From positions 14,336,861 through 14,400,860 of the forward strand of contig CM051638.1 in the NCBI GenBank assembly GCA_028020825.1: DNA of 64,000 nucleotides, given 5' to 3'. Made by a program: the position numbers and the translations under genes. The notes under the pieces were generated by a model, which was not told the origin of the DNA, searched no databases, and was given only the letters and a program-made list of their open reading frames with translations. This document shows positions 27,731 through 51,044 of the stretch, piece after piece. The stretch's first letter is position 1. Every line of letters starts with the position of its first letter. Origin of the DNA: Podargus strigoides. Its lineage: Eukaryota.

Positions 27731-27872
27731 CTGGGCCGGGCAGGGGGGAAGTGGAGTCATGAGCCACGCCCACCACCCACCCTGCCCTTGTGTCCCTGGG
27801 GTGTGCTGGGAGGACCCCCAGTGCCCTGGGGGACAGTGGAGGGCCCCAGTGCATGCTGGGAAGATGTCCGAC

Positions 27873-29949: not shown

Positions 29950-30600
29950 CACCACCCGGGCTGGCTGCCAAGGACCAGGTCGAGTCAGGCTTCAAATAAC
30001 ACCGAGGCTTGAGGCTCCACCGCCTCCCGGGGCAGCCTGTGCCGGTCACCCTTACAGTGACAAAGTGACTCCTGATGCTCAGAAGGATCCTCCTGTGTCC
30101 CAGTTTGTGCCCAGTGCCCCTTGTCCTGTCACTGGGCACCACCTAGCAGTCTGGCCCCGTCTTCCTGACACTGCCCCTTCGATATTGATGAGCTCCCCCC
30201 TCAGCCTCCTCTGCTCCACGCTGACCAGGCCCTGCTCCCTAAGCCTCTCCTCATGTGGCGTTGCGGCGCTTTGGGCCCGCTCATCCAGAGCCCAGCAGCT
30301 CCTCCGTGAGGACCCGGCGGGAGCCAGTGTCGCAGGACCCCCGGAATCCCAGGGACCCCAGCTGCAGCTCTCCCCTCAGATACAGGCCCAGTCATTCTGC
30401 CGCAGCTGATCAGGTGGGGCGAGCAGGAGCTCCCCTCACCGAAGCCATGCTGGCCGCTCCCAATGATCTCCCTCTCCCTCAGGGGCCTGGAAATGTTTCC
30501 AGGATTGAAGGGAGGTGAGGCCTGGCCTGCCCTGGGTCCTCCTCCCTGCCTTTCTGGAGGGTGGGGGTGACCTCTCCAGTCTCTGGACACTTCTCCCAGT
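29950..30600 (-). mobile_element. CR1 fragment inside MVP intron 9: ORF2 C-terminus plus a piece of mid-RT, with an internal deletion
   Basis: The minus ORF 29831..30142 reads DRTRGTGHKLGHRRILLSIRSHFVTVRVTG, the CR1 C-terminus. The plus strand at 30420-30520 translates AMLAAPNDLPLPQG...SRIEGR, the characteristic reverse-complement reading of CR1 ORF2 (compare 14460-14580). Confidence 0.65.
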
Positions 30601-31104
30601 TGCCATGATGGATCACTGAGAGCGGCCTCTTGAAAACAGCACTCAACGTCTCATCCCCCTGGGGTCACAGACCTAAACATTTCTATACATTTTCTCAAGG
30701 ATTCTTTAACCTGAGCCTCTCCTCCTGAGGGCACGTCTTCCTCACTCCAGACCTTCCCTCTGGAGCCCAGCATCCCCCAGTGTGACTCAACTCAAGGACA
30801 TGCTGTGACACAAGAGTCCTTGCACTGTCATTTCCTCCCAGGGCCCTACACGACCAACTCTGCCCAGCACTGCTCTGTGACATGCCAAAAACATGTGAAG
30901 GACATGGCTCACACGCCTAGGACACACCAGCCCCCACGCTGTCACCTGCTCCCTGGAGCCCAGCATCAGCTGGCCACCGACATGCCAAGGACACCGGTCA
31001 CACACCAAGGACGCACCAAAGCACAGGGGTCACTGCACCACCACCTGCACGCTCCTCTGTCCCCGCCCCAGCCAACCCCCCATGCCCAGAACACGGGTGC
31101 TCAC

Positions 31105-31355
31105 CGTGCCCGCCGCTCCCGGTAGTCGTAGACCTGCACGGCGGCGTTGTGGGGCACCTGGTAGGTGACAGCACGGGTGCGGTCGCGCTGGGGGACCCCA
31201 ACATCTGGGCTGGCGGAGGAGTGGATCCCAGCATCCATGCTGTGGGGGTCTCCACGGGCTTCGGCCAGCAGCGCCTCCACCCCGGGGGGCAGCTCCTTCT
31301 CCCACAGCTCCTCGGCCTCCGTCAGCATGTAGGTCTGGCCTGTCACCACCCGCAC
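31105..31355 (-). CDS. MVP: MVP coding exon 9 (251 nt)
   Basis: Acceptor gggtgcag|. Reads [83 protein letters not shown](R). Donor cg|GTGAGC. Confidence 0.85.
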
Positions 31356-31776
31356 CTGCACCCAGAGCCACCACAAGGTTCTGCTGGGCCGGGACAGCTG
31401 CTGGGGGGTTGGGATACTGGGAGGGGTTATGCAGGGTGTGTGGAGGCACTGTGAGAGGTATAAGGGATACTGGGAGCACTGGGATATGGTGGAGGAGTAC
31501 TGGCTGCACTGGGAGGGTTTGAAGGAACTGGGATGGGGTTTGGAGGCACTGGGAGCAGGTATATATATAGGGGCTTGCACAGCTATGGTAGGCTATAGGG
31601 GTCATGGGGAGTTATAACCATTATGGGGAACCATATGGGGGGCTGTGTGGGTTATGGGAAGTTCTAGGGAGCTGTAGTGGGGTTGGGGAGCTATAGGGGT
31701 TATGGGCGGGGGGGTACAGGGGTCTATAGGGGCCTCCAAGGAGCTCCCAGGGAGCTCCAGGAGCCAGGGCGGGCAC

Positions 31777-31935
31777 CTTGCCAGTGCGGATGTCACGCAC
31801 GTAGATGCCCTCATTGTCAGCAAGGGCCACGGCCCGGCGTCGCTCCAGCACGGCCACCTCGGCTGGTGGCACGTACTCGAGGGGGCCCCGGGCCAGCCAG
31901 CGGTCACCTGCCCGCCGTATCACCTCTGTTCCCTC
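31777..31935 (-). CDS. MVP: MVP coding exon 8 (159 nt)
   Basis: Acceptor attcccag|. Reads [53 protein letters not shown]. Donor |GTGCCC. Confidence 0.85.
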
Positions 31936-32341
31936 CTGGGAATGGAAGGATGGCATCAGTGACCAGCCTGGGGACACAGGGACCACCCCCCCTTGCATGG
32001 GGACACAGCCATTCCCCCATGGTCCTCTGCCACCAGCTGGCCTCAAGACATGGAGGCAGGGACACCCCCCAGTAGTCCCTCAGCTCAGGAACAGTGTGGA
32101 AGGGACTCCTCCCATGGCCCTCTGCTACCCACCTGGCCTGGGGAGTGTCCCCTGAGGCCTCCAGAATCCCCCAGGAGTCCCTCTCATACCCCAACTGTCC
32201 TGAGGTGCCCCAGCTGTCCCCTATGACACCCCAACCACTCCTGGGTCCCCCCCCATTTGTCCTCCAATTACTCCTGGTTGCCCCAGTCATCCCAGACTCC
32301 CTGGACCGCCCCCCTGAAACCCTGGGTGTCCCCTAGGCCAC

Positions 32342-32467
32342 CTCATCAGTGTCCTTGATGGTCTGGAGTGCCTGGAGCAGCAGCCCCTCGTCCTCAGAGA
32401 GCACATAGACATCCTGAATGCCAGCCTGGAGCCGCTCGCCTGGCTGCAGAAAGAAGGACTTCTCCCC
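32342..32467 (-). CDS. MVP: MVP coding exon 7 (126 nt)
   Basis: Acceptor atccccag|. Reads [42 protein letters not shown]. Donor |GTGGCC. Confidence 0.85.
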
Positions 32468-33197
32468 CTGGGGATGTGGGGACATGTCACCAGCAGGACA
32501 GGGATGTGGCAAAACAGGGACATGGGGCAGGGTCATGGAGACACGGTGGGACATGAAGTAAGGGCATGGGGACATGGTAGGACATGGGGGAAGGACACCA
32601 GGATATGGAGGGACACGGGGCAGGGACACAGGGGCGCTAGGGTCCCCCAGGGATGCCTTATGGGTCCCGTGGGCCACCTTCAAGACCTTCCCCAAGACCG
32701 TCTACAGGTATACCAGGGACAACTTCAGGCTCCTGGTGGCCACCCGCATGTTCCTATGGAAGCTCAGGGTCCCTCAGCAAGACGTCAGGGCTAATGTATC
32801 TTGACCTTTGGGAATGTGTTTGGGTATGTCAGGGCCACCTGTGGTCTCTGGGGCCCTCGGGTCATCATAGGGACCCTTGGGAACACCACAAGGGTGTTAA
32901 GATCCTTTGGGGATGCATTGGGGACTTTTGGGGACACCTCAGGGGTACATATGGGTTTCTTGGGGGCATCTATGCATACATGAGGTTCCCTCAGAGCCAG
33001 TGGGGTGTCCCTTGGGGCCACCCTCAGGTCCTGGGAAGCACACTTGGGTCTCTTGGGGCACCTTAGGATCCCCCGGTAACACCATAGCTGTACATCATGT
33101 GTCTTAGGGTCCCTCAGGAACACCTTTGATACCTATGGGCAAGCTAAGGCTACATTAGGTGCCTTGGGGCCACCCTTGGGTACCTCAGTGTGCCCAC

Positions 33198-33434
33198 CTT
33201 GATAACGCGCTGCTGGCCCAGCTGGGGCTGTCCATTGGGCCCCACAGGATCAAGAACCACGCAGTACTGCCGGGGGCCCAGCGTCGTCACCGCCACCTCA
33301 GCCACCACCTCCTCGAAGACCTCCGGGATGTAGGCCTCACTCTGTGCCTGAGTCACCAGCCACTCCTCACCCGTGCGCCGCACCCGGCCCTGCTCATCCT
33401 CAAAGGTCCGTGTCGCCCGCAGGTGCAGGGCTTT
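33198..33434 (-). CDS. MVP: MVP coding exon 6 (237 nt)
   Basis: Acceptor tttgcag|. Reads [79 protein letters not shown]. Donor |GTGGGCA. Confidence 0.85.
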
Positions 33435-33479
33435 CTGCAAAGGGGGGACACACCGGGATATGGTGAGTGTTGGGACACC

Positions 33480-34360
33480 CAAAGCTGGCCCCAACAGGCC
33501 CTGTCACCCACAGGTGCAACGAGATGGGGTTCAGCGGCCTCCAAACCTACCCCTGAGGGACCTCATCACCTGGGGGTGCAAGGGGACAGGGATGGGGTGG
33601 GTGGAGGGGACACAACCCCCTGGAGGGTCCTTGCCACCCATGGGTGCAGTGAGAATGAGGACATGCTGGGTGGGGGCCAGGGAAGAGAGGACTCTCTGAA
33701 GGGTCCTCATCATCTGTGGGCACAGGTGGGGGAGGGATGTGATGGACTGGGGGGCCATGGCACCCCACATCCATCCTGGAGGGTCTTCATTACCCATGGG
33801 TGCAGGGGAATGGGGACAAGAGACTCCCAAACCAATCCTGAAGGGTCCTTGTCACCCATGAGTGCAGGAGAACTGGCATGTGGGACCCTCAAACCCTTCC
33901 TGGGTGTCCTTATCACCCTTTGATACCAGGGGCACAGGGAACAGGACCCCTAAACCTATCCCATTGGGTCTTCATCACCCATGGGTACAGCAGGAAAGGG
34001 GCCATGGTGGGCTGTGGGAGGCCAGGAGGGTTTTCATCAGCCACTGAGGCAGGGGGAACAGGGACACCATGGGTGAAGAGGATGGGACCTTTTGGAGAGT
34101 CTCCTCATCACTCATGGGTGCAGGTGCCATGGGAACATGGTGGCTTGGAGGGTTCCCCAGGCCCCCCTGGAGGGTCCTTGTCACCCAGGGGCACAAGGGG
34201 TCAGGGTCATGGATGATCAGGGGGTGATGGGACCCTTCATCCATTCCTGGAGGGTTCCTATCACCCATGGGTGCAGAGGAATAGGGACACAGGGCCACCA
34301 AACCCAGCCCGGAGGGGCCTCATCACCTGTGGGCACCAAGGAGGCGAGGACAAGGATGCC
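33480..34360. repeat. Degenerate minisatellite of about 60-85 bp in MVP intron 5, about 12 units. The unit core is CCT(C/T)ATCACCCATGGGTGCAGG(G/A)G.
   Basis: The core recurs at about 33557, 33640, 33705, 33790, 33850, 33910, 33970, 34030, 34100, 34180, 34255 and 34320. Periodic minus-strand ORF translations repeat (A)PMG(D/N)(E/K)DPPG. Confidence 0.6.
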
Positions 34361-34366
34361 CAGTAC

Positions 34367-34461
34367 CTTGTCGGTGAGGATGTAGGCATCCACAACATCA
34401 ACCACCTCCTCGTAGACACCGGGCAGATAGGCACCCACCTGCTTCACCAGCCACTCCTCAC
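34367..34461 (-). CDS. MVP: MVP coding exon 5 (95 nt)
   Basis: Acceptor cccccag|. Reads (G)[31 protein letters not shown]. Donor |GTACTGG. Confidence 0.85.
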
Positions 34462-35025
34462 CTGGGGGCAGGGGACGGCTGTGGGGGAGCTGAGGACACT
34501 TGGGTGCTTGTGGGGGAAGGGGACCAGGAGTTCCAGGGGTACTGGGGTGTAGGGTGGGTTTTATGGGGGGAGGGATGGGAGTGTTGGGGATCCCAGGGCT
34601 GCTGTGGGATGGGATCTGGGACTGCTATGGGGTGGGAAAGGGGTGCTGGGGGTCCCAGGGGATGGGGGTGCTGGAGGCCCCAGGGGTGCTCTCAGATGAC
34701 ATGAAGCTCCCAGGGGTGCTGGAGGGTGAGAAAAGGGTCCCAGGGGTATGGGGTGAGGTGGCAGAGGGTGTCCCAGGGTGCTGGAGGGTGAGAAAAGGGT
34801 CCCAGGGGTATAGGGTGTCCCAGGGGTGCTGGAGGGTGACACAGGGGCCCCAGGGTATGGGGTGGGGTGGCACAGGGTGTCCCAGGGGTGCCTTCAGGTA
34901 ACAGGGGGGTCCCATGGGTGCTGAGGGGTAGCACCAATGGTACAAAGTGATGTTGTGCCAACTGACACAAAGGCTGCTGAGCGAGGCCTGAACCCAGGAG
35001 GTCAATGGGGTGTCACCAGCGCTAC

Positions 35026-35157
35026 CTGTGACGCGGCGGGCACCATAGCGGTCCAGGCACTCCTTGCGTGCCCGCAGGCGGATGGCCTGATTGTGCCCAA
35101 TGACAGTGGCCTGCAGCGTCTCGGCTACCTCCACCTCCTTGCGGGGTATGTAGGTGC
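35026..35157 (-). CDS. MVP: MVP coding exon 4 (132 nt)
   Basis: Acceptor tccacag|. Reads (G)[43 protein letters not shown](G). Donor |GTAGCG. Confidence 0.85.
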
Positions 35158-35231
35158 CTGTGGACAGGTGGCACTGTCAGCCAACGGGTCCCCCCGGGTG
35201 TCCCCAAAAGGGGGGGCTCCCCCCTGCTCAC

Positions 35232-35355
35232 CGGGACCCTCAAAGAGCCATTCGTCTCCTGCCACAAACTTGTTCCCGTCCTCATCCTTGAAGTCAAGCA
35301 GGGCCCGCAGGCGCAGGGCGGTGTCAGCAAGCACCACCTGCAGTGGGGTGACGCC
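35232..35355 (-). CDS. MVP: MVP coding exon 3 (124 nt)
   Basis: Acceptor tccccag|. Reads [41 protein letters not shown](G). Donor |GTGAGC. Confidence 0.85.
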
Positions 35356-36001
35356 CTGGGGACACATAGACACCGGGGTTGAGGGGGAATCCCCTGGGGA
35401 CATGGGTGCCACAGTGGAGATGTGGAGGATGTGGGGATGAGGGGCACAGGGGGCACTTCAGGAGATGCCCTGGGGACACTCTGGAGACGCAGGCGGTATG
35501 GCGGGAGACAGCGGGGCCATGGAGGGTCACTGTGGGGGACCTGGGGAAGCATCTAGGGGGCCACCATGGGGGATGTAGGGATATGGGGTTCAGGACAGGG
35601 CTGCGGGGGCAAGGGGGACACAGGGGTGATGTCAGGGGACATGGGGGAGGTGAAACCCTGGGACTGGGACACAGGTTTTCACTGCAGGGGATGTTGGGGG
35701 GAAGGGGGGACGCTACGGGGGACACAGGTTCAGAGCAGGGATGACACACTGGGGGCTACACGAGCAATGGAGGGGTGATAAGGTGCCTACAGGAGCTATG
35801 GGGGGGGGTGGCACAGGGAGCTATATGGGCTATAGGAACTGCAACAGACAGCAGAGGGATTAGAAGAGCTGTAGTGGCTACAGGTGGCCCCAGGCGGCTG
35901 TAGGGGTGGGTTCCAGAGGGGTTATGGAGCCTATAGGGGACCATGGGAGGGCTAGAGGAGCTGTAACGAGCCCTGGGGCCACTACAGGGGGCTACAGGTA
36001 C

Positions 36002-36197
36002 CTGCTGGATCTCCTCGCCAGGGTACAGGGGGAAGGGCTCCTGGGCCAGGCGGATATCAAGGTCGGCGTGCCGCAGCCGGACCTGCCCCACTCCATCTAC
36101 CAGCACGGCCCCCGTAGGGCCCCGGGCCACAGGGTTGAGCACCACGCAGTAGTGCCGGGGGGGCACCATCACCATACGTCTGGGGGCGAACACCACC
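36002..36197 (-). CDS. MVP: MVP coding exon 2 (196 nt)
   Basis: Acceptor ccgtag|. Reads (R)[23 protein letters not shown]...[26 protein letters not shown]. Donor |GTACCTG. Confidence 0.85.
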
Positions 36198-36719
36198 CTA
36201 CGGGCGGCCCGACATTGCTCCTCTCAGCCCTATAGAGCCCCCAGGGCCCCATGGAGTCCATCAAGCCCCCCAGCCCTCTACAACCTTATGGAATCCACAT
36301 GACCCTATCAAGCCCCTATGGCCCTACAGAGCCCCCAAACACTCCCATGGCCCTATACAACCCCAGTGCTCCCCAGGGCCTATAGAGCCCCCATAGTCCT
36401 ACAGAGCCTCCTCAGCATCCCCCACAGCTCTTCAGGAGTGCCACAGTCCTACAGATCCTCTCAAGTCCCTTGTGGCCCTATGGAACCCCTCAAACACCCC
36501 CTAGACTTATAAATCTACATCACCCTATAGCCATATAAATCCACGCCCTGCCCCGTAGCACCCGCACGTTGTAGTCCTGCCAGACACTGAGGTGGGACCC
36601 ACCATCCCATAGATCCTCTCCTGTCCCATAGCACTCACCTTTATTGGTCCTGCCAGATGAAGGAACTGGATGACCCCCCCCCCCAACTCAGAGGTGCCCC
36701 CCTGCCCCATAGCACCCAC

Positions 36720-36838
36720 CTCTCGTGATCCTGTCGGATATAGGTGTGGGGGCCAACCTCCACACGGGTGACATTGCTGTTGAGGTCCAGCACATGGACG
36801 TAGTGGTAGGGTGGTATGCGGATCACAGGGTCCTCCAT
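36720..36838 (-). CDS. MVP: MVP coding exon 1, containing the ATG at 36836-36838 (119 nt, ends in phase 2)
   Basis: Reads [39 protein letters not shown] then the donor ag|GTGGGTG. An AG acceptor (ctgcctcacag|g) lies 18 nt upstream of the ATG, which suggests this is really exon 2. Confidence 0.85.
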
Positions 36839-37079
36839 GGGGCAGACTTCCCTGTGAGGCAGCAGAGCTTTCCGGGGTGGAGATGAGCTTGCTGTGGGAC
36901 AGCACAGCTTGTTGTGGCTCCCTGCGGACAGGGAGACCTCGCTGCAGGCTGGAGAAGCTTGCTGTGGGGCAGATGGGGTCATGGGGAGGGGTAGAAGGCC
37001 TCCCCATGGGGCAGAGGAGCCCACCACAGGGTGGGATGCCCCAAAACTGCCAGGGGACCCTGCCGTGGGTAGGAACTGA

Positions 37080-37800
37080 GGAGCAGACGAGCTTCCACGG
37101 GGCTGGGGTGGGGGAGACCTCACCGTGGGAGAGCAGAGCACGTCGCCGCGGGGCAGGACACTTCCCTGTGGCGCGGGAGGGCCGGAAAAGCCTTTGCCCA
37201 GGCCCAGGCCCAGCCCCGACAGCAGGCAGGGCCCAACCCAGCGGGGCCCGCCCCGTGGGCTCGGGGTCACCCCCAGCCCGACTCCACGGCCGGGATCTAC
37301 TCCTCCCGCCGAGATCTACCGTCCCAGGGCACAACCTGCCCCCTCCAGCGCTGCAGCGACACCCCCAGGCTGGATTTACCCCTCTGCGGGGAACGCTTTG
37401 TGCCCCCCCCCGTCTCAGGGCTGGGATTTCCGGGCCGGGCCGGGCCGGGCCGGGAGAAGCGGGCGCAGCCCCAGATGCGATCCGACGGCGCGGCAGGGGC
37501 GGCCCGGGGCCAGGCCGAGGTTCCAGCGGGAGCCGCAGCGCCGCCGGGCGCAAGCCGGGACCCGCCGCCGCCACACCCGCCCCAAGCCCCGGCCCCTGGC
37601 CCGGCCCCGTTGCTTGGCAACCGGCGCCGCCATCTTGCCTGACGCGCCCTGGCAGCAGGCGCTTGTCGCAGCACGCCACCCGCCCCTACGGCGGGGGAGG
37701 GTGAGGAAGGGCGGAGCAGAAGGCTCCAGGCGACCCGCTCGGCTCGCTCCCATTGGTGGGAGGGGAGAGGGGCCAATTACGGGGCGCGGCACCTGAGGGA
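37080..37800 (-). promoter_or_regulatory. MVP: MVP CpG-island promoter region. CCAAT boxes at 37752-37756 (minus sense) and 37773-37777 (inverted). Predicted non-coding first exon somewhere in 37100-37700.
   Basis: The region is extremely CG-dense with no TATA box. It is 240-960 bp upstream of the ATG exon, which itself has an upstream AG acceptor. NF-Y-type CCAAT motifs are present. Confidence 0.55.
37430..37454. repeat. (CCGGG)5 microsatellite within the MVP CpG island
   Basis: The sequence ccgggccgggccgggccgggccggg is seen directly. Confidence 0.9.
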
Positions 37801-40800
37801 ACCGGACAAGGGCGGGGGGGTGCCACGCCTGGCAGGGTGCAGCAGGCCTAGGATAAAACACACAGTGGGTTAGGGAACAGTGTGGGGGACAGCAGGCCTA
37901 GGGGGACACACAGAGTGGGTGAGGGAACAGTGTTGGGGGACAGCAGGCCTAGGGGGACACACCCAGTGGGTGAGGGAGCAGTGTTGGGGGACAGCAGGCT
38001 TAGGAGGACACACACAGTGGGTGAGGGAACAGTGTTGGGGGACAGCAGACCTAGGGGGACCCACAGAGTGGGGTAGGGAACAGTGCTGGCTGACAGCAGG
38101 CCTAGGGGGACACACACAGTGTGTGAGGGAACTGTGCTGGGGGACAGCAGGCCTAGGGGGGCATACACAGTGGGTGCGGGAACAGTGTTGGGGGACAGCA
38201 GGCCTAGGGGGGCACACACAGTGGGTGTGGGAACCGTCCTGGGGGACAGCAGGCCTAGGGGGGCATACACAGTGGGTGCGGGAACAGTGTTGGGGGACAG
38301 CAGGCCTAGGGGGACACACACAGTTGGTGAGGAAACAGTGCTGGGGGACAGCAGGCCTAGGGGGACACACACATAGGGTGAGGAAAGAGTGTTGGGGGAC
38401 AGCAGGCCAAGGGGACACAGAGAGTGGGTGAAGGAACAGTGTTGGGGGACAGCAGGCCTAGGGGGGCACACACAGTGGGTGTGGGAACTGTGCTGGGGTA
38501 CAGCAGGCCTAGGGGGACCCACACAGTGGGGTAGGGAACAGTGCTGGGTGACAGCAGGCCTAGGGGGACACACAGAGTGGGTGAGGGAACAGTGTTAGGG
38601 GACAGCAGGCCTAGGGGGACACACACAGTGGGTGAGGGAACAGTGCTGGGGGACAGCAGGCCTAGGGGGACACACACATTGGGTGACGGAACAGTGCTGG
38701 GTGACAGCAGGCCTAGGGGGACACACACAGTGGGTGAGGGAACAGTGTTGGGGGACAGCAGGCCTAGGGGGGCACACACAGTGGGTGAGAGAACAGTGCT
38801 GGGGGACAGCAGGCCTAGGGGGCATAAGCAGTGGGTGAGGGAATAGTGTTGGGTGCCACCAGACCTAGGGGGACACACACAGTGGGTGAGGGACCAGTGC
38901 TGTGGGACAGCAGGCCTAGGGGGACACACACAGTGGGTGAGGGAACAGTGCTGGGGGACAGCAGGCCTAGGGGGGCACACACAGTGGGTGTGGGAACCGT
39001 GCTGGGGGACAGCAGGCCTAGGGGGACCCACACAGTCGGGTAGGGAACAGTGTTGGGGGACAGCAGGCCTAGGGGGGCACACACAATGGATGTGGGAACA
39101 GTGTTAGGGGACAGCAGGCCTAGGGGGACACACAGAGTGGGTGAGGGAACAGTGCTGGGGGACAGCAGGCCTAGGGGGACACACACATTGGGTGAGGGAA
39201 CAGTGTTGGGGGACAGCAGGCCTAGGGGGGCACACACAGTGGGTGTGGGAACCGTGCTGGGGGACAGCAGGCCTAGGGGGACCCACACAGTCGGGTAGGG
39301 AACAGTGCTGGGGGACAGCAGGCCTAGGGGGACAAACACAGTGGGTGAAGGAACAGTGCTGTGGGACAGCTGGATTAGGGGGACACACACAGTGTGTGAG
39401 GGAACAGTGTTGGGGGACAGCAGTCCTAGGGGGACACACACAGTGGGTGAGGAAACAGTGCTGGGTGACAGCAGGCCTAGGGGGACACACACAGTGTGTG
39501 AGGGAACAGTGCTGGGTGATAGCAGGCCTAGGGGGACACACACGGTGGGTGAGGGAACAGTGTTGGGGGACAGCAGGCCTAGGGGGACACACACCATAGG
39601 TGAGGGAACAGTGCTGGGGGACAGCAGGCCTAGGGGGGCATACACAGTGGATGCGGGAACAGTGTTGGGGGACAGCAGGCCTCGGGGGACACACATATAG
39701 GGTGAGGAAAGAGTGTTGGGGGACAGCAGGCCAAGGGGACACACAGAGTGGGTGAGGGAACAGTGTTGGGGGACAGCAGGCCTAGGGGGGCACACACAGT
39801 GTGTGTGGGAACCATGCTGGGGGACAGCAAGCCTAGGGGGACCCACACAGTGGGGTAGGGAACAGTGCTGGGTGACAGCAGACCTAGGGGGACACACACA
39901 GTGGGTGAGGGAAGAGTGCTGGGGGAAGGCAGGCTTAGGGGGGCACACACAGTGGGTGCGGGAACCTTGCTGGGGGACAGCAGGCCTAGGGGGACACACA
40001 CAGTGGGTGAGGGAAAAGTACTGGGGGACAGGAGTTCTAGGGCGACACACACAGTGGGTGAGGGAACAGTGCTGGGGGACAGCAGGCCTAGGGGGGCATA
40101 CACAGTGGGTGAGGGAACAGTGTTGGGGGACAGCAGGCCTAGGGGGACACACAGAGTGGGTGAGGGAACAGTGTTGGGGGACAGCAGCCCTAGGGGTGCA
40201 CACACAGTGGGTGAGGAAACAGTGGTGGGGGACAGCAGGCCTAGGGGGACCCACACAGTCGGGTAGGGAACAGTGTTGGGGGACAGCAGGCCTAGGGGGG
40301 CACACACAGTGGGTGTGGGAACAGTGTTAGGGGACAGCAGGCCTAGGGGGACACACGGAGTGGGTGAGGGAACAGTGCTGGGGGACAGCAGGCCTAGGGG
40401 GACACACACATTGGGTGAGGAAAGAGTGTTGGGGGACAGCAGGCCTAGGGGGACACACACAGTGGGTGCGGGAACCTTGCTGGGGGACAGCAGGCCTAGG
40501 GGGACACACACAGTGGGTGAGGGAAAAGTACTGGGGGACAGGAGTTCTAGGGCGACACACACAGTGGGTGAGGGAACAGTGCTGGGGGACAGCAGGCCTA
40601 GGGGGGCATACACTGTGGGTGAGGGAACAGTGTTGGGGGACAGCAGGCCTAGGGGGACACACAGAGTGGGTGAGGGAACAGTGTTGGGGGACAGCAGCCC
40701 TAGGGGTGCACACACAGTGGGTGAGGAAACAGTGGTGGGGGACAGCAGGCCTAGGGGGACCCACACAGTCGGGTAGGGAACAGTGCTGGGTGACAGCAGT

Positions 40801-43800
40801 CCTAGGGGGACACACACAGTGGGTGAGGGAACAGTGCTGGGGGACAGCAGGTCTCGGGGGACACACACAGTGGGTGAGGGAAGAGTGCTGGGTGATAGCA
40901 GGCCTAGGGGGACACACACATAGGGTGAGGAAAGAGTGTTGGGGGACAGCAGGCCAAGGGGACACACAGAGTCGGTGAAGGAACAGTGTTGGGGGACAGC
41001 AGGCCTAGGGGGACACACAGAGTAGGTGAGGGAACAGTGTTAGGGGACAGCAGGCCTAGGGGGACACACACAGTGGGTGAGGGAACAGTGTTGGGGGACA
41101 GCAGGCCTAGGGGGACACACAGAGTGGATGAGGGAACAGTGCTGGGTGACAGCAGGCCTAGGGGGACACACACAGTGGGTGAGGGAGCAGTGCTGGGGGA
41201 CAGCAGGCCTAGGGGGACACAAACATTGGGTGAGGGAACAGTGCTGGGTGACAGCAGGCCTAGGGGGACACACACAGTGGGTGAGGGAACAGTGTTGGGG
41301 GACAGCAGGCCTAGGGGGGCACACACAGTGGGTGAGAGAACAGTGCTGGGGGACAGCAGACCTAGGGGGCATAAGCAGTGGGTGACGGAATAGTGTTGGA
41401 TGCCACCAGACCTAGGGGGACACACACAGTGGGTGAGGGACCAGTGCTGTGGGACAGCAGGCCTAGGTGGACCCACACAGTCGGGAAGGGAACAGTGCTG
41501 GGGGACAGCAGGCCTAGGGGGGCACACACAGTCGGGTAGGGAACAGTGTTGGGGGACAGCAGGCCAAGGGGGGCACACACAGTGGGTGTGGAAACAGTGT
41601 TGGGGGACAGCAGGCCTAGGGGGACACACAGAGTGGGTGAGGGAACAGTGCTGGGGGACAGCAGGCCTAGGGGGACACACACATTGCGTGAGGAAAGAGT
41701 GTTGGGGGACAGCAGGCCTAGGGGGACACACAGAGTGGGTGAGGGAACAGTGCTGGGGGACAGCAGGCCTAGGGGAGCACACACAATGGGTGAGGGAACA
41801 GTGTTGGGGGACAGCAGGCCTAGGGGGACCCACACAGTCGGGTAGGGAAAAGTGCTGGGGGACAGCAGGCCTAGGGGGACAAACACAGTGGGTGAAGGAA
41901 CAGTGCTGTGGGACAGCTGGATTAGGGGGACACACACAGTGTGTGAGGGAACAGTGTTGGGGGACAGCAGTCCTAGGGGGACACACACAGTGGGTGAGGA
42001 AACAGTGCAGGGGGACAGCAGGCCTAGGGGGACACACACAGTGTGTGAGGAGACAGTGCTGGGTGATAGCAGGCCTAGGGGGACACACACGGTGGGTGAG
42101 GGAACAGTGCTGGGGGACAGCAGGCCTAGGGGGACACACACCATAGGTGAGGGAACAGTGCTGGGGGACAGCAGGCCTAGGGGGGAATACACAGTGGGTG
42201 AGGGAACAGTGTTCGGGAACAGCAGGCCTAGGGGGGCACACACAGTGGGTGAGGGAACAGTGCTGGGGGACAGCAGGCCTAGGGGGGCATACACAGTGGG
42301 TGCGGGAACAGTGTTGGGGGACAGCAGGCCTCGGGGGACACACACAGTGGGTGAGGGAACAGTGCTGGGTGATAGCAGGCCTAGGGGGACACACACATAG
42401 GGTGAGGAAAGAGTGTTGGGGGACAGCAGGCCAAGGGGACACACAGAGTGGGTGAAGGAACAGTGTTGGGGGACAGCAGGCCTAGGGGGGCACACACAGT
42501 GTGTGTGGGAACCATGCTGGGGGACAGCAAGCCTAGGGGGACCCACACAGTGGGGTAGGGAACAGTGCTGGGTGACAGCAGGCCTAGGGGGACACACACA
42601 GTGGGTGAGGGAATAGTGCTGGGGGATAGCAGGCCTAGGTGGGCATACACAGTGGGTGAGGGAAGAGTGCTGGGGGAAGGCAGGCTTAGGGGGGCACACA
42701 CAGTGCGTGCGGGAACCTTGCTGGGGGACACCAGGCCTTGGGGGACACACACAGTGGGTGAGGGAAAAGTGCTGGGGGACAGGAGTTCTAGGGCGACACA
42801 CACAGTGGGTGAGGGAACAGTGCTGGGGGACAGCAGGCCTAGGGGGGCATACACAGTGGGTGAGGGAACAGTGTTGGGGGACAGCAGGCCTAGGGGGGGA
42901 CACAGAGTGGGTGAGGGAACAGTTTTGGGGGACAGCAGCCCTAGGGGTGCACACACAGTGGGTGAGGGAACAGTGTTGGTGGACAGCAGGCCTAGGGGGA
43001 CACACACATTGGGTGAGGGAACAGTGCTGGGGGACAGCAGGCCTAGGGGGACACACAGAGTGGGTGAGGGAACAGTGTTGGGGGACAGCAGGCCTAGGGG
43101 GGCACACACAGTGGGTGTGGGAACTGTGCTGGGGTACAGCAGGCCTAGGGGGACCCACACAGTGGGGTAGGGAACAGTGCTGGGTGACAGCAGGCCTAGG
43201 GGGACACACAGAGTGGGTGAGGGAACAGTGTTAGGGGACAGCAGGCCTAGGGGGACACACAGAGTGGGTGAGGGAACAGTGCTGGGGGACAGCAGTCCTA
43301 GGGGGACACACAGAGTAGGTGAGGGAACAGTGCTGGGGGACAGCAGGCCTAGGGGGACACACACATTGGGTGAGGAAAGAGTGTTGGGGGACAGCAGGCC
43401 TAGGGGGACTCACAGAGTGGGTGAGGGAACAGTGTTGGGGGAACGCAGGCTTAGGGGGGCACACACAGTGGGTGCGGGAAAAGTGCTGGGGGACAGGAGT
43501 TCTAGGGCGACACACACAGTGGGTGAGGGAACAGTGCTGGGGGACAGCAGGCCTAGGGGGGCATACACAGTGGGTGAGGGAACAGTGTTGGGGGACAGCA
43601 GGCCAGGGGGACACACAGAGTGGGTGAGGGAACAGTGTTGGGGGACAGCAGCCCTAGGGTGCACACACAGTGGGTGAGGAAACAGTGGTGGGGGACAGCA
43701 GGCCTAGGGGGACCCACACAGTCGGGTAGGGAACAGTGCTGGGTGACAGCAGGCCTAGGGGTACACACACAGTGGGTGAGGGAACAGTGCTGGGGGACAG

Positions 43801-46159
43801 CAGGCCTCGGGGGACACACACAGTGGGTGAGGGAAGAGTGCTGGGTGATAGCAGGCCTAGGGGGACACACACATAGGGTGAGGAAAGAGTGTTGGGGGAC
43901 AGCAGGCCAAGGGGACACACAGAGTGGGTGAAGGAACAGTGTTGGGGGACAGCAGGCCTAGGGGGACACACAGAGTGGGTGAGGGAACAGTGTTAGGGGA
44001 CAGCAGGCCTAGGGGGACACACACAGTGGGTGAGGGAACAGTGTTGGGGGACAGCAGGCCTAGGGGGACACACAGAGTGGATGAGGGAACAGTGCTGGGT
44101 GACAGCAGGCCTAGGGGGACACACACAGTGGGTGAGGGAATAGTGTTGGATGCCACCAGACCTAGGGGGACACACACAGTGGGTGAGGGACCAGTGCTGT
44201 GGGACAGCAGGCCTAGGTGGACCCACACAGTCGGGTAGGGAACAGTGTTGGGGGACAGCAGGCCAACGGGGGGCACACACAGTGGGTGTGGAAACAGTGT
44301 TGGGGGACAGCAGGCCTAGGGGGACACACAGAGTGGGTGAGGGAACAGTGCTGGGGGACAGCAGGCCAAGGGGGACACACACATTGGGTGAGGAAAGAGT
44401 GTTGGGGGACAGCAGGCCTAGGGGGACACACAGAGTGGGTGAGGGAACAGTGTTGGGGGACAGCAGGCCTAGGGGGACACCCACAGTGGGTGAGGAAACA
44501 GTGCTGGGGGACAGCAGGCCTAGGGGGACACAAACAGTGTGTGAGGGAACAGTGCTGGATGATATCAGGCCTAGGGGGACATACACGGTGGGTGAGGGAA
44601 CAGTGTTGGGGGACAGCAGGCCTAGGGGGACACACACCATAGGTGAGGGAACAGTGCTGGGGGACAGCAGGCCTAGGGGGGCACACACAGTGGGTGAGGG
44701 AACAGTGCTGGGGGACAGCAGGCCTAGGGGGGCATACACAGTGGGTGCGGGAACAGTGTTGGGGGACAGCAGGCCTCGGGGGACACACACAGTGGGTGAG
44801 GGAACAGTGCTGGGTGATAGCAGGCCTAGGGGGACACACACATAGGGTGAGGAAAGAGTGTTGGGGGACAGCAGGCCAAGGGGACACACAGAGTGGGTGA
44901 AGGAACAGTGTTGGGGGACAGCAGGCCTAGGGGGGCACACACAGTGTGTGTGGGAACCATGCTGGGGGACAGCAAGTCTAGGGGGACCCACTCAGTGGGG
45001 TAGGGAACAGTGCTGGGTGACAGCAGGCCTAGGGGGACACACACAGTGGGTGAGGGAATAGTGCTGGGGGATAGCAGGCCTAGGTGGGCATACACAGTGG
45101 GTGAGGGAAGAGTGCTGGGGGAAGGCAGGCTTAGGGGGGCACACACAGTGGGTGCGGGAACCTTGCTGGGGGACAGCAGGCCTAGGGGGACACACACAGT
45201 GGGTGAGGAAAAAGTGCTGGGGGACAGGAGTTCTAGGGCGACACACACAGTGGGTGAGGGAACAGTGCTGGGGGACAGCAGGCCTAGGGGGGCATACACA
45301 GTGGGTGAGGAAACAGTGTTGGGGAAAGCAGGCCTAGGGGGACACACAGAGCGGGTGAGGGAACAGTGTTGGGGGACAGCAGCCCTAGGGGGACACACAG
45401 AGTGGGTGAGGGAACAGTGTTGGGGGACAGCAGGCCTAGGATGGCACACACAGTGGGTGTGGGAACTGTGCTGGGGTACAGCAGGCCTAGGGGGACCCAC
45501 ACAGTGGGGTAGGGAACAGTGCTGGGTGACAGCAGGCCTAGGGGGACACACAGAGTGGGTGAGGGAACAGTGTTAGGGGACAGCAGGCCTAGGGGGACAC
45601 ACAGAGTGGGTGAGGGAACAGTGCTGGGGGACAGCAGGCCTAGGGGGACACACAGAGTGGGTGAGGGAACAGTGCTGGGGGACAGCAGGCCTAGGGGGAC
45701 ACACACATTGGGTGAGGAAAGAGTGTTGGGGGACAGCAGGCCTAGGGGGACACACAGAGTGGGTGAGGGAACAGTGCTGGGGGACAGCAGGCCTAGGGGG
45801 ACCCACACAGTCGGGTAGGAAACAGTGCTGGGGGACAGCTGGATTAGGGGGACACACACAGTGTGTGAGGGAACAGTGTTGGGGGACAGCAGTCCTAGGG
45901 GGACACACACAGTGGGTGAGGAAACAGTGCTGGGGGACAGCAGGCCTAGGGGGACACACACAGTGTGTGAGGGAACAGTGCTGGGTGATAGCAGGCCTAG
46001 GGGGACACACACGGTGGGTGAGGGAACAGTGTTGGGGGACAGCAGGCCTAGGGGGACACACACCATAGGTGAGGGAACAGTGCTGCGGGACAGCAGGCCT
46101 AGGGGGACACACAGAGTGGGTGAGGGTACAGTGTTGGGGGACAGCAGGACTAGGGGGGC

Positions 46160-49100
46160 ACACACTGTGGGTGTGGGAACCGTGCTGGGGGACAGCAGGC
46201 CTAGGGGGACCCACACAGTCGGGTAGGGAACAGTGCTGGGCGACAGCAGGCCTAGGGGGACAAACACAGTGGGTGAAGGAACAGTGCTGGGGGACAGCTG
46301 GATTAGGGGGACACACACAGTGTGTGAGGGAACAGTGTTGGGGGACAGCAGTCCTAGGGGGACACACACAGTGGGTGAGGAAACAGTGCTGGGGGACAGC
46401 AGGCCTAGGGGGACACACACAGTGTGTGAGGGAACAGTGCTGGGTGATAGCAGGCCTTGGGGGACACACACCATAGGTGAGGGAACAGTGCTGCGGGACA
46501 GCAGGCCTAGGGGGACACACACATAGGGTGAGGAAAGAGTGTTGGGGGACAGCAGGCCAAGGGGCACACAGAGTGCGTGAAGGAATAGTGTTAGGGGACA
46601 GCAGGCCTAGGGGGGCACATACAGTGTGTGTGGGAACCATGCTGGGGGACAGGAAGCCTAGGGGGACCCACAAAGTGGGGTAGGGAACAGTGCTGGGTGA
46701 CAGCAGGCCTAGGGGGACACACACCGTGGGTGAGGGAGTAGTGCTGAGGGATAGCAGGCCTAGGTGGGCATACACAGTGGGTGAGGGAAGAGTGCTGGGG
46801 GAAGGCAGGCTTAGCGGGGCACACACAGTGGGTGCGGGAACCTTGCTGGGGGACAGCAGGCCTAGGGGGACACACACAGTGGGTTAGGGAAAAGTGCTGG
46901 GGGACAGGAGTTCTAGGGCGACACACACAGTGGGTGAGGGAACAGTGCTGGGGGACAGCAGGCCTAGGGGGGCATACACAGTGGGTGAGGGAACAGTGTT
47001 GGGGGACAGCAGGCCTAGGGGGACACACACAGTGGGTGAGGGAACAGTGTTGGGGGACAGCAGCCCTAGGGGTGCACACACAGTGGGTGAGGGAACAGTG
47101 CTGGGTGATAGCAGGCCTAGGGGGACACACACATAGGGTGAGGAAAGAGTGTTGGGGGACAGCAGGCCAAGGGGACACACAGAGTGGGTGAAGGAACAGT
47201 GTTGGGGGACAGCAGGCCTAGGGGGGCACACACAGTGTGTGTGGGAACCATGCTGGGGGACAGCAAGCCTAGGGGGACCCACACAGTGCGGTAGGGAACA
47301 GTGCTGGGTGACAGCAGGCCTAGGGGGACACACACAGTGGGTGAGGGAATAGTGCTGGGGGATAGTAGGCCTAGGGGGACACACAGACTGGGTGAGGGAA
47401 CAGTGTTAGGGGACAGCAGGCCTAGGGGGACACACAGAGTGGGTGAGGGAACAGTGCTGGGGGACAGCAGGCCTAGGGGGGCACACAGAGTAGGTGAGGG
47501 AACAGTGCTGGGGGACAGCAGGCCTAGGGGGACACACACATTGGGTGAGGAAAGAGTGTTGGGGGACAGCAGGCCTAGGGGGACACACAGAGTGGGTGAG
47601 GGAACAGTGTTGGGGGAACGCAGGCTTAGGGGGGCACACACAGTGGGTGCGGGAACCTTGCTGGGGGACAGCAGGCCTAGGGGGACACACACAGTGGGTG
47701 AGGGAAAAGTGCTGGGGGACAGGAGTTGTAGGGCGACACACACAGTGGGTGAGGGAACAGTGCTGGGGGACAGCAGGCCTAGGGGGGCATACACAGTGGG
47801 TGAGGGAACAGTGTTGGGGGACAGCAGGCCTAGGGGGACACACAGAGTGGGTGAGGGAACAGTGTTGGGGGACAGCAGCCCTAGGGGTGCACACACAGTG
47901 GGTGAGGAAACAGTGGTGGGGGACAGCAGGCCTAGGGGGACACACACAGTGTGTGAGGGAACAGTGCTGGGTGATAGCAGGCCTAGGGGGACACACACGG
48001 TGGGTGAGGGAACAGTGTTGGGGGACAGCAGGCCTAGGGGGACACACACCATAGGTGAGGGAACAGTGCTGCGGGACAGCAGGCCTAGGGGGACACACAG
48101 AGTGGGTGAGGGTACAGTGTTGGGGGACAGCAGGACTAGGGGGGCACACACTGTGGGTGTGGGAACCGTGCTGGGGGACAGCAGGCCTAGGGGGACACAC
48201 AGAGTGGGTGAGGGAACAGTGCTGGGGGACAGCAGGCCTAGGTGGACACACACATTGGGTGAGGAAAGAGTGTTGGGGGACAGCAGGCCTAGGGGGACAC
48301 ACAGAGTGGGTGAGGGAACAGTGTTGGGGGACAGCAGGCCTAGGGGGGCATACACAGTGGGTGAGGGAACAGTGTTGGGGGACAGCAGGCCTAGGGGGAC
48401 ACACACAGTGTGTGAGGGAACTGTGCTGGGGGACAGCAGGCCTAGGGGGGCATACACAGTGTGTGCGGGAACAGTGTTGGGGGACAGCAGGCCTCGGGGG
48501 ACACACACAGTGGGTGAGGTAACAGTACTGGGTGATAGCAGGCCTAGGGGGACACACACATAGGGTGAGGAAAGAGTGTTGGGGGACAGCAGGCCAAGGG
48601 GACACACAGAGTGGGTGAAGGAACAGTGTTGGGGGACAGCAGGCCTAGGGGGACACACAGTGGGTGAGGGAACAGTGTTGGGTGACAGCAGGTCTAGGGG
48701 GACACACAGAGTGGGTGAGGGAACAGTGCTGGGGGACAGCAGGCCTAGGGGGGCCCACACAGTGGGGTAGGGAACAGTGCTGGGTGACAGCAGGCCTAGG
48801 GGCACACACAGAGTGGGTGAGGAAACAGTGTTGGGGGACAGCAGGCCTCGGGGGACACACAGAGTGGGTGAGGGAACAGTGTTGGGGGACACCAGGGCTA
48901 GGGGGACACACAGAGTGGGTGTTGGAACAGTGTTGGGGGACAGGAGGCCTAAGGGGAACCACACGGTGGGGTAGGGAACAGTGCTGGGTGACACCAGGCT
49001 TAGGGGGACACGCACAGTGGGTGAGGAAACAGTTTTGGGGGACAGCAGGCCTAGGGGGACACACAGAGTGGATTAGGGAACAGAGGTGGGGGACAGCAGG

Positions 49101-51040: not shown

Positions 51041-51044
51041 GGGC

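What the first reader, a model, noticed from the sequence alone, without database searches (positions are those of the whole stretch)
36720..37900. The satellite array begins about 60-85 bp from the MVP CCAAT boxes and CpG island
The first satellite unit is at 37,838. The CCAAT motifs are at 37,752-37,777. The CpG island runs 37,080-37,800, and the ATG is at 36,838. A multi-kb, presumably heterochromatic, satellite is therefore in direct contact with a CpG-island promoter of a broadly expressed gene. This raises the question of what insulates the promoter. The CpG island itself may act as the boundary, and the (CCGGG)5 run and G-rich tracts are candidate CTCF or G4 elements. Alternatively the array may be transcribed from the MVP bidirectional promoter.
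Basis: partly seen in the sequence, partly recalled or inferred. Interest (0 to 1): 0.6.

Follow-up and report, generated by a model that had tools for sequence, protein, structure and literature searches.

The report
Satellite array abutting the MVP promoter
In what is almost certainly a bird genome, a tandem array of a 51-base repeat at least 26 kb long starts about 60 bases beyond the last recognisable promoter motif of the intact major vault protein gene; the junction is real and sharp, but this arrangement looks typical of small GC-rich bird chromosomes and needs no special insulator to explain it.

Summary
A one-orientation 51-bp array (514 units, 92% identical to its consensus) begins abruptly at 37,840 and runs off the window end. 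That is 62 bp from the + strand CCAAT (37,773-77) and 83 bp from the MVP-sense CCAAT (37,752-56). MVP appears intact.

- The array is almost CpG-free (o/e 0.084), so it can carry little DNA methylation. "Heterochromatic" is an assumption.
- No CTCF consensus lies near the junction.
- The array has no canonical G4 motif, only long-loop ones, all on the + strand.
- A perfect AAGATGGCGGC (YY1-type) motif plus GC and CCAAT boxes put the likely MVP TSS near 37,650, about 180 bp from the array.

Literature on chicken and zebra finch dot chromosomes describes the same landscape. My best reading is a self-sufficient NF-Y/Sp1/YY1 CpG-island promoter whose upstream edge limits an array that grows by internal unequal exchange. 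Divergent transcription into the array is plausible: it has no poly(A) signals, 304 GGTGAG sites, and a unique ATAAAA in the first unit. This is untested. Interest is modest.

The parts
37840..64000 (+). 51-bp tandem array, 514 units, single orientation, G-rich on the + strand (GC 0.62, GC skew +0.42), CpG o/e 0.084. Consensus CAGCAGGCCTAGGGGGACACACACAGTGGGTGAGGGAACAGTGCTGGGGGA. Runs off the window end.
37080..37800 (.). CpG island (GC 0.752, CpG o/e 0.727; core 37,300-37,800)
37773..37777 (+). CCAAT box pointing toward the array
   Evidence: enrichment
37752..37756 (-). CCAAT box in the MVP sense (ATTGG on +)
37810..37820 (+). GGGCGGGGGGG: a GC box plus a G7 string, 20 bp from the array edge. 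Candidate Sp1/VEZF1-type site.
   Evidence: VEZF1 binds (dG-dC)6-9 strings, PMC2795164. Binding is inferred, not tested.
37709..37714 (+). GC box GGGCGG
37680..37685 (-). GC box (GGGCGG in the MVP sense), about 20-35 bp upstream of the inferred TSS
37626..37636 (-). AAGATGGCGGC in the MVP sense: a perfect extended YY1-type motif, usually just downstream of a TSS. Places the likely MVP TSS near 37,650-37,665.
   Evidence: 0 of 1000 shuffles contain it. Its usual position relative to a TSS is from general knowledge, not tested here.
37430..37454 (+). (CCGGG)5 run; G3N2 G4-type motif on the + strand
37853..37858 (+). ATAAAA in the first satellite unit, the only ATAAA(A) between 36,800 and 64,000. 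Possible TATA-like element of a divergent promoter.
   Evidence: function inferred
36720..36851 (-). First coding exon of MVP. Acceptor CTGCCTCACAG|GG gives an exon start at 36,851; ATG at 36,838-36,836; donor GAG|GTGGGT at 36,719.
37124..37660 (-). Region that must hold the non-coding exon 1. Candidate donors at 37,576, 37,379 and 37,123; which one is used is unknown.
   Evidence: inference
26884..36838 (-). MVP coding exons and the AATAAA signal (TTTATT on + at 26,884). All expected exons were recovered.
46142..55911 (+). Two tandem copies of a 4,885-bp (96-unit) block inside the array, 99.98% identical. A partial third copy lies at 55,912-57,436.

Best explanation
This is the upstream edge of a compact, TATA-less CpG-island promoter (CCAAT/NF-Y, GC-box/Sp1-type and YY1-type motifs) of an intact MVP gene. 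It is abutted by a large G-rich, CpG-poor 51-bp satellite of the kind that fills the space around genes on small GC-rich avian chromosomes.

The array grows and turns over by unequal exchange in its interior. Its promoter-side edge is old and static. I infer the array has expanded as far as it can without removing motifs needed for MVP expression.

No separate insulator is required. The factor-bound, unmethylated island, including G-strings next to the junction, keeps itself open. The neighbouring array has almost no CpG from which methylation could spread.

Shown: the anatomy, the sharpness of the junction, the CpG contrast, the motif content and the internal duplications. Inferred: factor binding, TSS position, chromatin states and the selective limit on array spread.
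For: - Sharp junction. The unit profile and local alignments find no similarity in the 100 bp flank beyond shuffles (122 of 300 shuffles score as high or higher). The first 25 units are as close to the consensus (93%) as interior units.
- Interior turnover. There is a 4,885-bp duplication at 99.98% and others at 99%. The best 5-unit block match rises from 0.952 in the promoter-proximal 1.3 kb to 1.0 in the interior.
- CpG contrast. CpG o/e drops from 0.79-0.85 to 0-0.17 within about 100 bp at the junction. The array is at 0.084, against 0.23-0.30 in flanking non-island DNA.
- Promoter grammar. Two opposed CCAAT boxes, GC boxes and the 11-mer AAGATGGCGGC in the MVP sense (0 of 1000 shuffles). 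An acceptor sits 13 bp before the ATG. In-frame and out-of-frame upstream ATGs argue for a spliced non-coding exon 1.
- MVP is intact.
- No CTCF consensus.
- Context. Chicken dot chromosomes are rich in housekeeping genes. Satellites are their main repeat and carry relatively low H3K9me3 (PMC9974502). Local tandem expansions surround dot-chromosome genes (PMC12954441). Their minisatellite units are multiples of 10-11 bp and G4-rich in euchromatin.
- Chromosome placement. Tinamou MVP lies on a 4.35-Mb chromosome amid dense arrays, including an unrelated 51-bp one. KCTD13, a 16p11.2 neighbour of MVP in human, is on chicken dot chromosome 38.
Against: - No expression, methylation or chromatin data could be consulted, so 'self-sufficient island' is inference from motifs.
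- The species and chromosome are unidentified.
- The other side of MVP (1-24 kb) is TE-rich (CR1, ERV). In chicken that marks pericentromeric heterochromatin, so the gene may sit in a more repressive setting than typical dot-chromosome euchromatin.
- The orthologous promoter could not be compared. The sunbittern contig ends inside the island and the tinamou 5' end is disrupted by a gap and an insert.
- The GC-box count is not above chance in this GC-rich DNA.
Confidence: 0.6

Rival explanations
1. The island is a bidirectional promoter and the array is its divergent transcription unit. RNA polymerase II starts near 37,880 and runs far into the array, making a long G-rich non-coding RNA prone to R-loops or long-loop G4. 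This transcript, or the act of transcription, keeps the array open or forms a nuclear RNP domain. This is compatible with the best explanation rather than exclusive of it.
For: - A + strand CCAAT (37,773) lies 21 bp from the MVP-sense one.
- GGGCGGGGGGG sits at 37,810-20.
- The only ATAAAA in 27 kb sits in the first unit at 37,853-58.
- There is no AATAAA or ATTAAA on either strand in 26 kb.
- There are 304 GGTGAG donor-like sites on the + strand, about one per unit.
- The G-rich strand is the non-template strand for rightward transcription (GC skew +0.42). All 326 long-loop G4 motifs are on that strand.
[quoted passage not shown] It is donor-rich and PAS-depleted and recruits splicing factors (bioRxiv 10.64898/2026.03.19.712899).
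Against: - No RNA evidence was available.
- Picking out the ATAAAA is post hoc, and edge units of arrays are often aberrant.
- No Rfam family matches.
- ViennaRNA with G4 terms predicts no G4 in the unit.
- Lampbrush data report that most chicken loci are transcribed from one strand with rare read-through.
Confidence: 0.3
2. The array is constitutive heterochromatin. A dedicated barrier element in the 60-bp gap (37,778-37,839), for example a VEZF1/USF/CTCF-type site as in chicken beta-globin 5'HS4, actively stops its spread into the promoter.
For: - A G7 string within GGGCGGGGGGG lies 20 bp from the array edge. VEZF1 binds (dG-dC)6-9 strings and protects CpG islands from methylation (PMC2795164).
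- The strong CpG depletion of the array is what long-term germline methylation of arising CpGs would produce.
- TE-rich DNA lies on the other side of the gene.
Against: - No CTCF consensus and no E-box CACGTG (USF) in 36,700-37,900.
- G-strings also occur twice in every satellite unit, so they do not mark the boundary uniquely.
- The array's CpG poverty may simply reflect a CpG-less founder unit.
- Chicken dot-chromosome satellites have comparatively low H3K9me3.
Confidence: 0.12
3. The junction, or the size of the array, is an assembly artefact: a mis-join at a repeat or an artificial expansion.
For: - There is a 4,885-bp tandem duplicate with 99.98% identity and a partial third copy.
- GC-rich, repeat-rich bird regions are known to be hard to assemble.
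- The window ends inside the array.
Against: - The junction shows no Ns or other discontinuity.
- The first unit is a diverged edge-type unit followed by a gradient of block similarity. That pattern looks biological.
- The sunbittern contig is colinear up to 37,429.
Confidence: 0.07
4. The real MVP promoter is elsewhere, at a distal first exon beyond the array. The island next to the array would then be an intragenic or orphan CpG island.
For: - The first-exon donor cannot be assigned; candidates score 1.9-4.9.
- No transcript evidence was available.
Against: - The island has an orientation-consistent CCAAT / GC box / YY1 arrangement at the spacing expected for a TSS near 37,650.
- A distal exon would need an intron of more than 26 kb made of pure satellite in a gene that otherwise spans about 10.8 kb.
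Confidence: 0.05

Closest known systems
Tandem-repeat landscape of avian dot/micro-chromosomes: chicken T2T (PMC9974502), 'sequence stuttering' (PMC12954441), zebra finch T2T and non-B DNA surveys (bioRxiv 10.1101/2025.10.14.682431 and 10.1101/2025.10.17.683159)
   Same: - GC-rich tandem arrays of tens-of-bp units packed against and inside housekeeping-type genes.
- Unit length near a multiple of 10-11 bp (51 bp).
- G-run-rich on one strand.
- Evidence of local expansion by duplication.
- A relative's MVP locus (tinamou) is equally array-dense.
   Different: - This is one very long (at least 26 kb), homogeneous intergenic array, not short, messy intronic 'stutters'.
- Its unit is not detectably derived from adjacent unique sequence.
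- TE-rich DNA flanks the other side of the gene.
- Chromosome identity is unknown.
Chicken LL2R transcribed tandem array (bioRxiv 10.64898/2026.03.19.712899)
   Same: - Long one-orientation array next to a promoter.
- High density of donor-like splice sites.
- No or few poly(A) signals.
- Predicted G4 potential.
   Different: - The LL2R unit is about 446 bp and is driven by a LINE promoter. Here the unit is 51 bp and the candidate driver is a gene's CpG island.
- Transcription is demonstrated for LL2R and untested here.
Chicken beta-globin 5'HS4 barrier and VEZF1 elements at CpG islands (PMC2795164)
   Same: - A boundary between repeat-containing DNA and an active gene in a bird.
- G-strings of the length VEZF1 binds lie at the boundary and in the island.
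   Different: - No CTCF or USF motif is present.
- There is no separate hypersensitive element; the boundary coincides with the promoter itself.
- Binding is untested.
Ubiquitous chromatin opening elements: methylation-free CpG islands of divergently transcribed housekeeping genes (PMC9764128, PMC4330381; titles and abstracts)
   Same: A CpG-island promoter with motifs in both orientations that presumably stays active beside repetitive DNA.
   Different: - UCOEs are defined functionally, by anti-silencing in transgenes, and by two annotated divergent genes.
- Neither was shown here.
Chicken 41-42 bp satellites CNM and PO41 (mentioned in PMC9974502 and PMC4301066)
   Same: Short-unit avian microchromosomal satellites, some of them transcribed.
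   Different: - The period here is 51 bp, not 41-42.
- No regular higher-order repeat was found.
- Sequences could not be compared, because no eukaryotic repeat library was available.

Membership tests
CpG island (Gardiner-Garden type criteria) | Length over 200 bp, GC over 50%, CpG o/e over 0.6 | tested here: met
   37,080-37,800: 721 bp, GC 0.752, o/e 0.727
TATA-less NF-Y/Sp1/YY1 CpG-island promoter | CCAAT box(es) about 60-120 bp upstream of the TSS, GC boxes, no TATA, YY1 motif just downstream of the TSS, all in a consistent orientation | tested here: met
   Met at motif level only. MVP-sense CCAAT at 37,756-52, GC boxes at 37,685-80 and 37,714-09, AAGATGGCGGC at 37,636-26, and no TATA on the minus strand. 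Factor binding and the TSS were not testable.
Satellite / tandem array | Head-to-tail copies of one unit, far more than chance | tested here: met
   TRF score 38,262, 513.8 copies; 514 aligned units
Avian dot-chromosome tandem-repeat landscape | Located on one of the small, very GC-rich 'dot' chromosomes | not testable with these tools
   Indirect only. Window GC is 0.60-0.72 from 24 kb onward. Tinamou MVP is on a 4.35-Mb chromosome. KCTD13 is on chicken chr38.
Avian dot-chromosome tandem-repeat landscape | Unit length a multiple of about 10-11 bp, G-run-rich, GC-rich | tested here: met
   51 bp, GC 0.62, four G-runs per unit
Sequence stuttering (local expansion of adjacent unique sequence) | Repeat unit derived from neighbouring unique sequence | tested here: not met
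   nhmmer unit profile against 1-37,839 finds nothing above shuffles. The flank alignment is no better than shuffles.
Centromeric higher-order-repeat satellite | Regular multi-monomer higher-order period | tested here: not met
   No dominant lag beyond single large duplications (lag 96 = one 4,885-bp duplicate). CENP-A binding was not testable.
CTCF insulator | Match to the CTCF core consensus CCASYAGRKGGCRS | tested here: not met
   With up to 1 mismatch, the only 3 matches in the window are at 465, 20,904 and 32,027; none lies in 36.7-64 kb. The count is below the chance expectation.
Canonical G-quadruplex motif (G3+N1-7)x4 | Four G-runs of at least 3 with loops of at most 7 | tested here: not met
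   For the array: 0 motifs; 326 only if loops up to 12 are allowed; G4Hunter mean 0.99. The (CCGGG)5 run in the island does meet the motif.
VEZF1-type methylation-barrier element | Homopolymeric dG-dC string of about 6-9 bp bound by VEZF1 | tested here: inconclusive
   G7 at 37,814-20 and C9 at 37,403-11 are present. Strings of G5 recur in every satellite unit, and binding is not testable.
Bidirectional promoter | Two divergent TSSs within about 1 kb | not testable with these tools
   Only motif hints: opposed CCAAT boxes and the ATAAAA at 37,853
Transcribed donor-rich, PAS-poor array (LL2R-like) | Excess of donor sites, depletion of poly(A) signals, one-strand transcription | tested here: inconclusive
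   304 GGTGAG and 0 AATAAA/ATTAAA in 26 kb. Transcription was not testable.
CNM / PO41 chicken satellites | 41-42 bp unit | tested here: not met
   The period is 51 bp. The sequence comparison was not done.

The most novel reading that the evidence does not exclude
The MVP CpG island is a true bidirectional promoter. Its second product is a very long, unterminated, G-rich satellite RNA, with the non-template strand G-rich over at least 26 kb, a donor-like site in every 51-bp unit and no poly(A) signal. Transcription-coupled R-loop and RNP formation on this array, not a protein insulator, would keep the satellite from silencing the gene. That would be an immunoglobulin-switch-region-like or LL2R-like structure attached to a housekeeping promoter.
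Probability: 0.12. Interest if true: 0.55.

Novelty: new member of a known kind. Interest (0 to 1): 0.3.

Why it matters
If the simple reading holds, this is a clean single-locus example of how close a large satellite can sit to a working promoter: about 180 bp from the inferred TSS and 62 bp from the last motif. It would show that a CpG-island promoter can serve as its own boundary. That makes it a convenient test case for boundary function on bird microchromosomes, but not a new principle. It would matter more if the array proves to be transcribed from the MVP island, because that would link housekeeping promoters to satellite RNA production.

Tried and rejected
- Species identification failed. 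The MVP N-terminus gives at most 76% identity (turtles, tinamou). CR1 ORF2 gives at most 73% (kiwi). Exact look-ups of the CR1 ORFs found nothing. I conclude 'bird' from the 71-75% non-coding alignment to the sunbittern contig.
- Searches for the satellite elsewhere found nothing. I tried a translated 615-aa satellite ORF against 5.8 billion proteins, exact consensus patterns in metagenome and prokaryote genome collections, and a literal 16-mer and '51 bp' terms in the paper library. These collections are essentially non-avian, so the negatives are weak.
- Origin of the unit from local sequence is rejected. A shared 9-mer TGAGGGAAC in the flank is at chance level. A nominal similarity at 36,840-36,939 (3 of 300 shuffles) does not survive seven tests.
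- Orthologous promoter comparison was inconclusive. The sunbittern contig stops inside the island. The tinamou 5' end has a gap and an AT-rich insert, and its ATG exon was not found. Two 'ENA' MVP hits turned out to be compact genes of unrelated eukaryotes.
- The CpG-decay signature from unit variants was too sparse and too confounded by block duplication to interpret.
- The splice-donor PWM cannot pick the exon-1 donor, because real MVP donors score from -4 to 4.9.
- Rfam scan: nothing. Telomere repeats: none. The bacterial promoter/terminator scan is irrelevant here.
Full report
**1. What is in the sequence**

Tandem Repeats Finder reports one array from 37,840 to the last base of the window (64,000). 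Its period is 51 bp, with 513.8 copies and consensus CAGCAGGCCTAGGGGGACACACACAGTGGGTGAGGGAACAGTGCTGGGGGA.

A wraparound alignment to that consensus resolves 514 units, all in one orientation, with mean identity 92.4%. Identity does not decay toward the promoter: the first 25 units are at 93%. The first unit starts at 37,840 and matches 45 of 51 positions.

Composition is constant across the 26 kb: GC 0.62 and GC skew +0.42, so the + strand is G-rich.

- CCAAT at 37,773-37,777 (+).
- ATTGG at 37,752-37,756, which is CCAAT in the MVP sense.
- (CCGGG)5 at 37,430-37,454.
- The ATG on the minus strand at 36,838.

The interval 37,080-37,800 is a bona fide CpG island: 721 bp, GC 0.752, CpG o/e 0.727. 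The gaps from the two CCAAT motifs to the first unit are 62 and 83 bp.

**2. The gene**

The minus-strand ORF from 36,838 reads [30 protein letters not shown]... A probe alignment recovers MVP exons from 36,838 down to about 26,968. The one exon that the alignment missed ([32 protein letters not shown]) is present near 34,460.

Database hits are Vault/Vault_2 proteins named major vault protein. The best is 76% identical, from turtles and a tinamou. An AATAAA lies at 26,884 on the gene's strand. The gene looks intact and spans about 10.8 kb.

The source is a bird. The 5' UTR, intron and exon region 37,429-36,701 aligns at 71-75% to a sunbittern (Eurypyga helias) contig. The species could not be identified.

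**3. Promoter anatomy**

In the MVP sense, going downstream from the array edge, the island carries:
- a G7 string within GGGCGGGGGGG (37,820-37,810);
- an inverted CCAAT (37,777-73);
- a sense CCAAT (37,756-52);
- GC boxes (37,714-09 and 37,685-80);
- the 11-mer AAGATGGCGGC (37,636-26).

That 11-mer is the extended YY1-type motif. From general knowledge it usually lies just downstream of the TSS in TATA-less promoters. None of 1,000 dinucleotide shuffles of the island contain it.

Two CCAAT motifs in the last 240 bp exceed chance (P=0.018). The GC-box count does not.

This arrangement puts the likely TSS at about 37,650-37,665, roughly 180 bp from the array.

A good acceptor (CTGCCTCACAG|GG) sits 13 bp before the ATG, and upstream ATGs litter the interval. 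A spliced non-coding exon 1 is therefore likely. Its donor cannot be assigned: the candidates are at 37,576, 37,379 and 37,123, and real MVP donors score no better.

A distal first exon beyond the array is unlikely. It would require an intron of more than 26 kb made of pure satellite.

**4. The junction and the array's dynamics**

The junction is abrupt. A profile built from the units finds nothing in 1-37,839 above shuffled controls. The 100 bp next to the array aligns to the unit no better than shuffles do, with 122 of 300 shuffles scoring as high or higher. The unit is therefore not visibly derived from promoter or intron sequence.

There is no regular higher-order repeat. The interior does contain very recent large duplications:
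- 46,142-51,026 and 51,027-55,911, 96 units each, 99.98% identical;
- a partial third copy of that block;
- a 1,989-bp pair.

The best 5-unit block match rises from 0.952 in the first 1.3 kb to 1.0 in the interior. This is the pattern expected for an array that turns over by unequal exchange internally and has an older, static edge.

**5.

*Heterochromatin and methylation.* The consensus unit has no CpG. The array holds 176 CpGs in 26,161 bp (o/e 0.084), against 0.23-0.30 in flanking non-island DNA and 0.73 in the island. The switch happens within about 100 bp of the junction. The array therefore can carry little CpG methylation. The depletion is what germline methylation of new CpGs would produce, but a CpG-less founder unit explains it equally well, and my attempt to separate the two was uninformative.

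*CTCF.* No match to CCASYAGRKGGCRS (up to 1 mismatch) lies between 36.7 and 64 kb.

*G4.* (CCGGG)5 fits G3N2 on the + strand. The array has 0 canonical motifs and 326 only with loops up to 12, all on the + strand. Its G4Hunter mean is 0.99, and no G4 appears in the ViennaRNA minimum-energy fold.

*Divergent transcription.* This idea gains some sequence support:
- the two CCAAT boxes are opposed;
- GGGCGGGGGGG lies at 37,810-20;
- the only ATAAAA between 36.8 and 64 kb lies in the first unit, at 37,853-58;
- the array has no AATAAA or ATTAAA on either strand and 304 GGTGAG donor-like sites on the + strand.

All of this is at motif level, and picking out the ATAAAA is post hoc.

**6. Context from elsewhere**

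Published work describes this kind of landscape:
- The complete chicken genome paper describes ten 'dot' chromosomes that are very GC-rich and enriched for housekeeping genes. Satellites are their main repeat class and carry less H3K9me3 than LINEs/LTRs (PMC9974502).
- A 2026 study describes pervasive local tandem expansions in and around dot-chromosome genes (PMC12954441). Its supplement places KCTD13, a human 16p11.2 neighbour of MVP, on chicken chr38.
- The zebra finch T2T papers report euchromatic minisatellites with units that are multiples of 10-11 bp, co-localising with G4 motifs.

The tinamou (Eudromia elegans) MVP locus sits about 0.12 Mb from the end of a 4.35-Mb chromosome. It is saturated with tandem arrays, including an unrelated 51-bp array of 90 copies upstream of the gene. 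Its 5' end is interrupted by a gap and an AT-rich insert, so the promoters cannot be compared.

The sunbittern contig ends inside the CpG island.

Chicken LL2R is a precedent for a long, donor-rich, PAS-poor array transcribed on one strand from an adjacent promoter.

VEZF1 binds (dG-dC)6-9 strings and protects CpG islands from methylation (PMC2795164).

**7. Conclusion**

The most economical reading is an ordinary avian microchromosomal arrangement. A compact, self-sufficient CpG-island promoter has an upstream edge that sets the limit for an adjacent, internally expanding, CpG-poor G-rich satellite. No dedicated insulator is visible (confidence about 0.6).

Divergent transcription into the array is a compatible and testable addition (about 0.3). 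A dedicated barrier element, misassembly or a distal TSS are less likely.

One caveat is that the other flank of MVP (1-24 kb) is TE-rich. It holds an intact CR1 and ERV fragments, so the gene may lie nearer to heterochromatin than typical dot-chromosome euchromatin.

I class the satellite as a new member of a known kind. I could not show it to be undescribed, because no avian repeat library or genome database was available. Interest is modest at 0.3.

Noticed in passing
window 13,581-17,341 (- strand): A full-length CR1-like LINE with both ORFs open: ORF1 of 356 aa at 16,271-17,341 and ORF2 of 895 aa at 13,581-16,268. ORF2 has endonuclease and reverse-transcriptase domains. The best database identity is only 73% (kiwi). 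Intact CR1 copies are uncommon in birds and suggest recent activity.
   Followed up: partly
window 5,800-8,300 (+) and 11,440-12,740 (-): Endogenous retrovirus fragments: integrase (6,236-6,799), env transmembrane domain (7,902-8,297) and RNase H (12,076-12,738). Together with other CR1 pieces (2.2-3.6 kb, 18.6-21.1 kb), they make the DNA downstream of MVP TE-rich. The upstream side is pure satellite.
   Followed up: partly
window 37,853-37,858: The only ATAAAA (or ATAAA) between 36,800 and 64,000 lies in the first satellite unit, where four clustered substitutions replace GGGGGAC. It sits 76 bp downstream of the + strand CCAAT and 33 bp downstream of GGGCGGGGGGG.
   Followed up: partly
window 46,142-57,436: A 4,885-bp block (96 units) is present as two adjacent copies at 99.98% identity, plus a partial third copy at 99%. 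This is either a very recent unequal exchange or an assembly duplication. A 1,989-bp pair lies at 58,047-59,729 and 60,036-61,718.
   Followed up: partly
window 37,840-64,000: Because 51 is divisible by 3 and two frames per strand lack stops, the array contains very long spurious ORFs, up to 1,500 aa at 57,801-62,303 (-). Gene callers could mistake these for proteins. No homologue was found in the protein database.
   Followed up: yes
window 32,517-32,594 and 34,708-34,919: There are short G-rich tandem repeats (periods 30-31, 48 and 110 bp) inside MVP introns, in the style of 'sequence stuttering'. They are unrelated to the 51-bp satellite.
   Followed up: no
window 36,840-36,939: The 5' UTR / intron 1 segment (GCTGTGGGACAGCACAGC...) shows a nominal similarity to the satellite unit (3 of 300 shuffles). 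This is not significant after seven tests. The interval 36,850-37,180 also has loosely repeated C(C/T)GTGGGGCAG-like motifs.
   Followed up: partly
L001 (Eudromia elegans CM106454.1) 77-4,707; 7,708-12,560: The tinamou MVP locus has its own 51-bp array (90 copies, CpG-containing, no similarity to the window's unit). It also has an AT-rich insert with 19-bp and 23-bp arrays next to an assembly gap, and the MVP ATG exon was not found. The annotated protein P0048 starts with a non-MVP peptide.
   Followed up: partly
L002 (Eurypyga helias JJRO01075440.1) 833-2,623: The sunbittern MVP N-terminus looks degraded: a His-rich insertion and many R-to-C/H/Q changes typical of CpG decay, with CpG o/e 0-0.29 across the 5' region. 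It may be a pseudogene or low-quality sequence. The contig breaks inside the region homologous to the CpG island.
   Followed up: no
window 36,811-37,704 (+): A 297-aa ORF lies antisense to MVP across the CpG island and has no Pfam match. It is probably a by-product of GC-rich sequence.
   Followed up: yes
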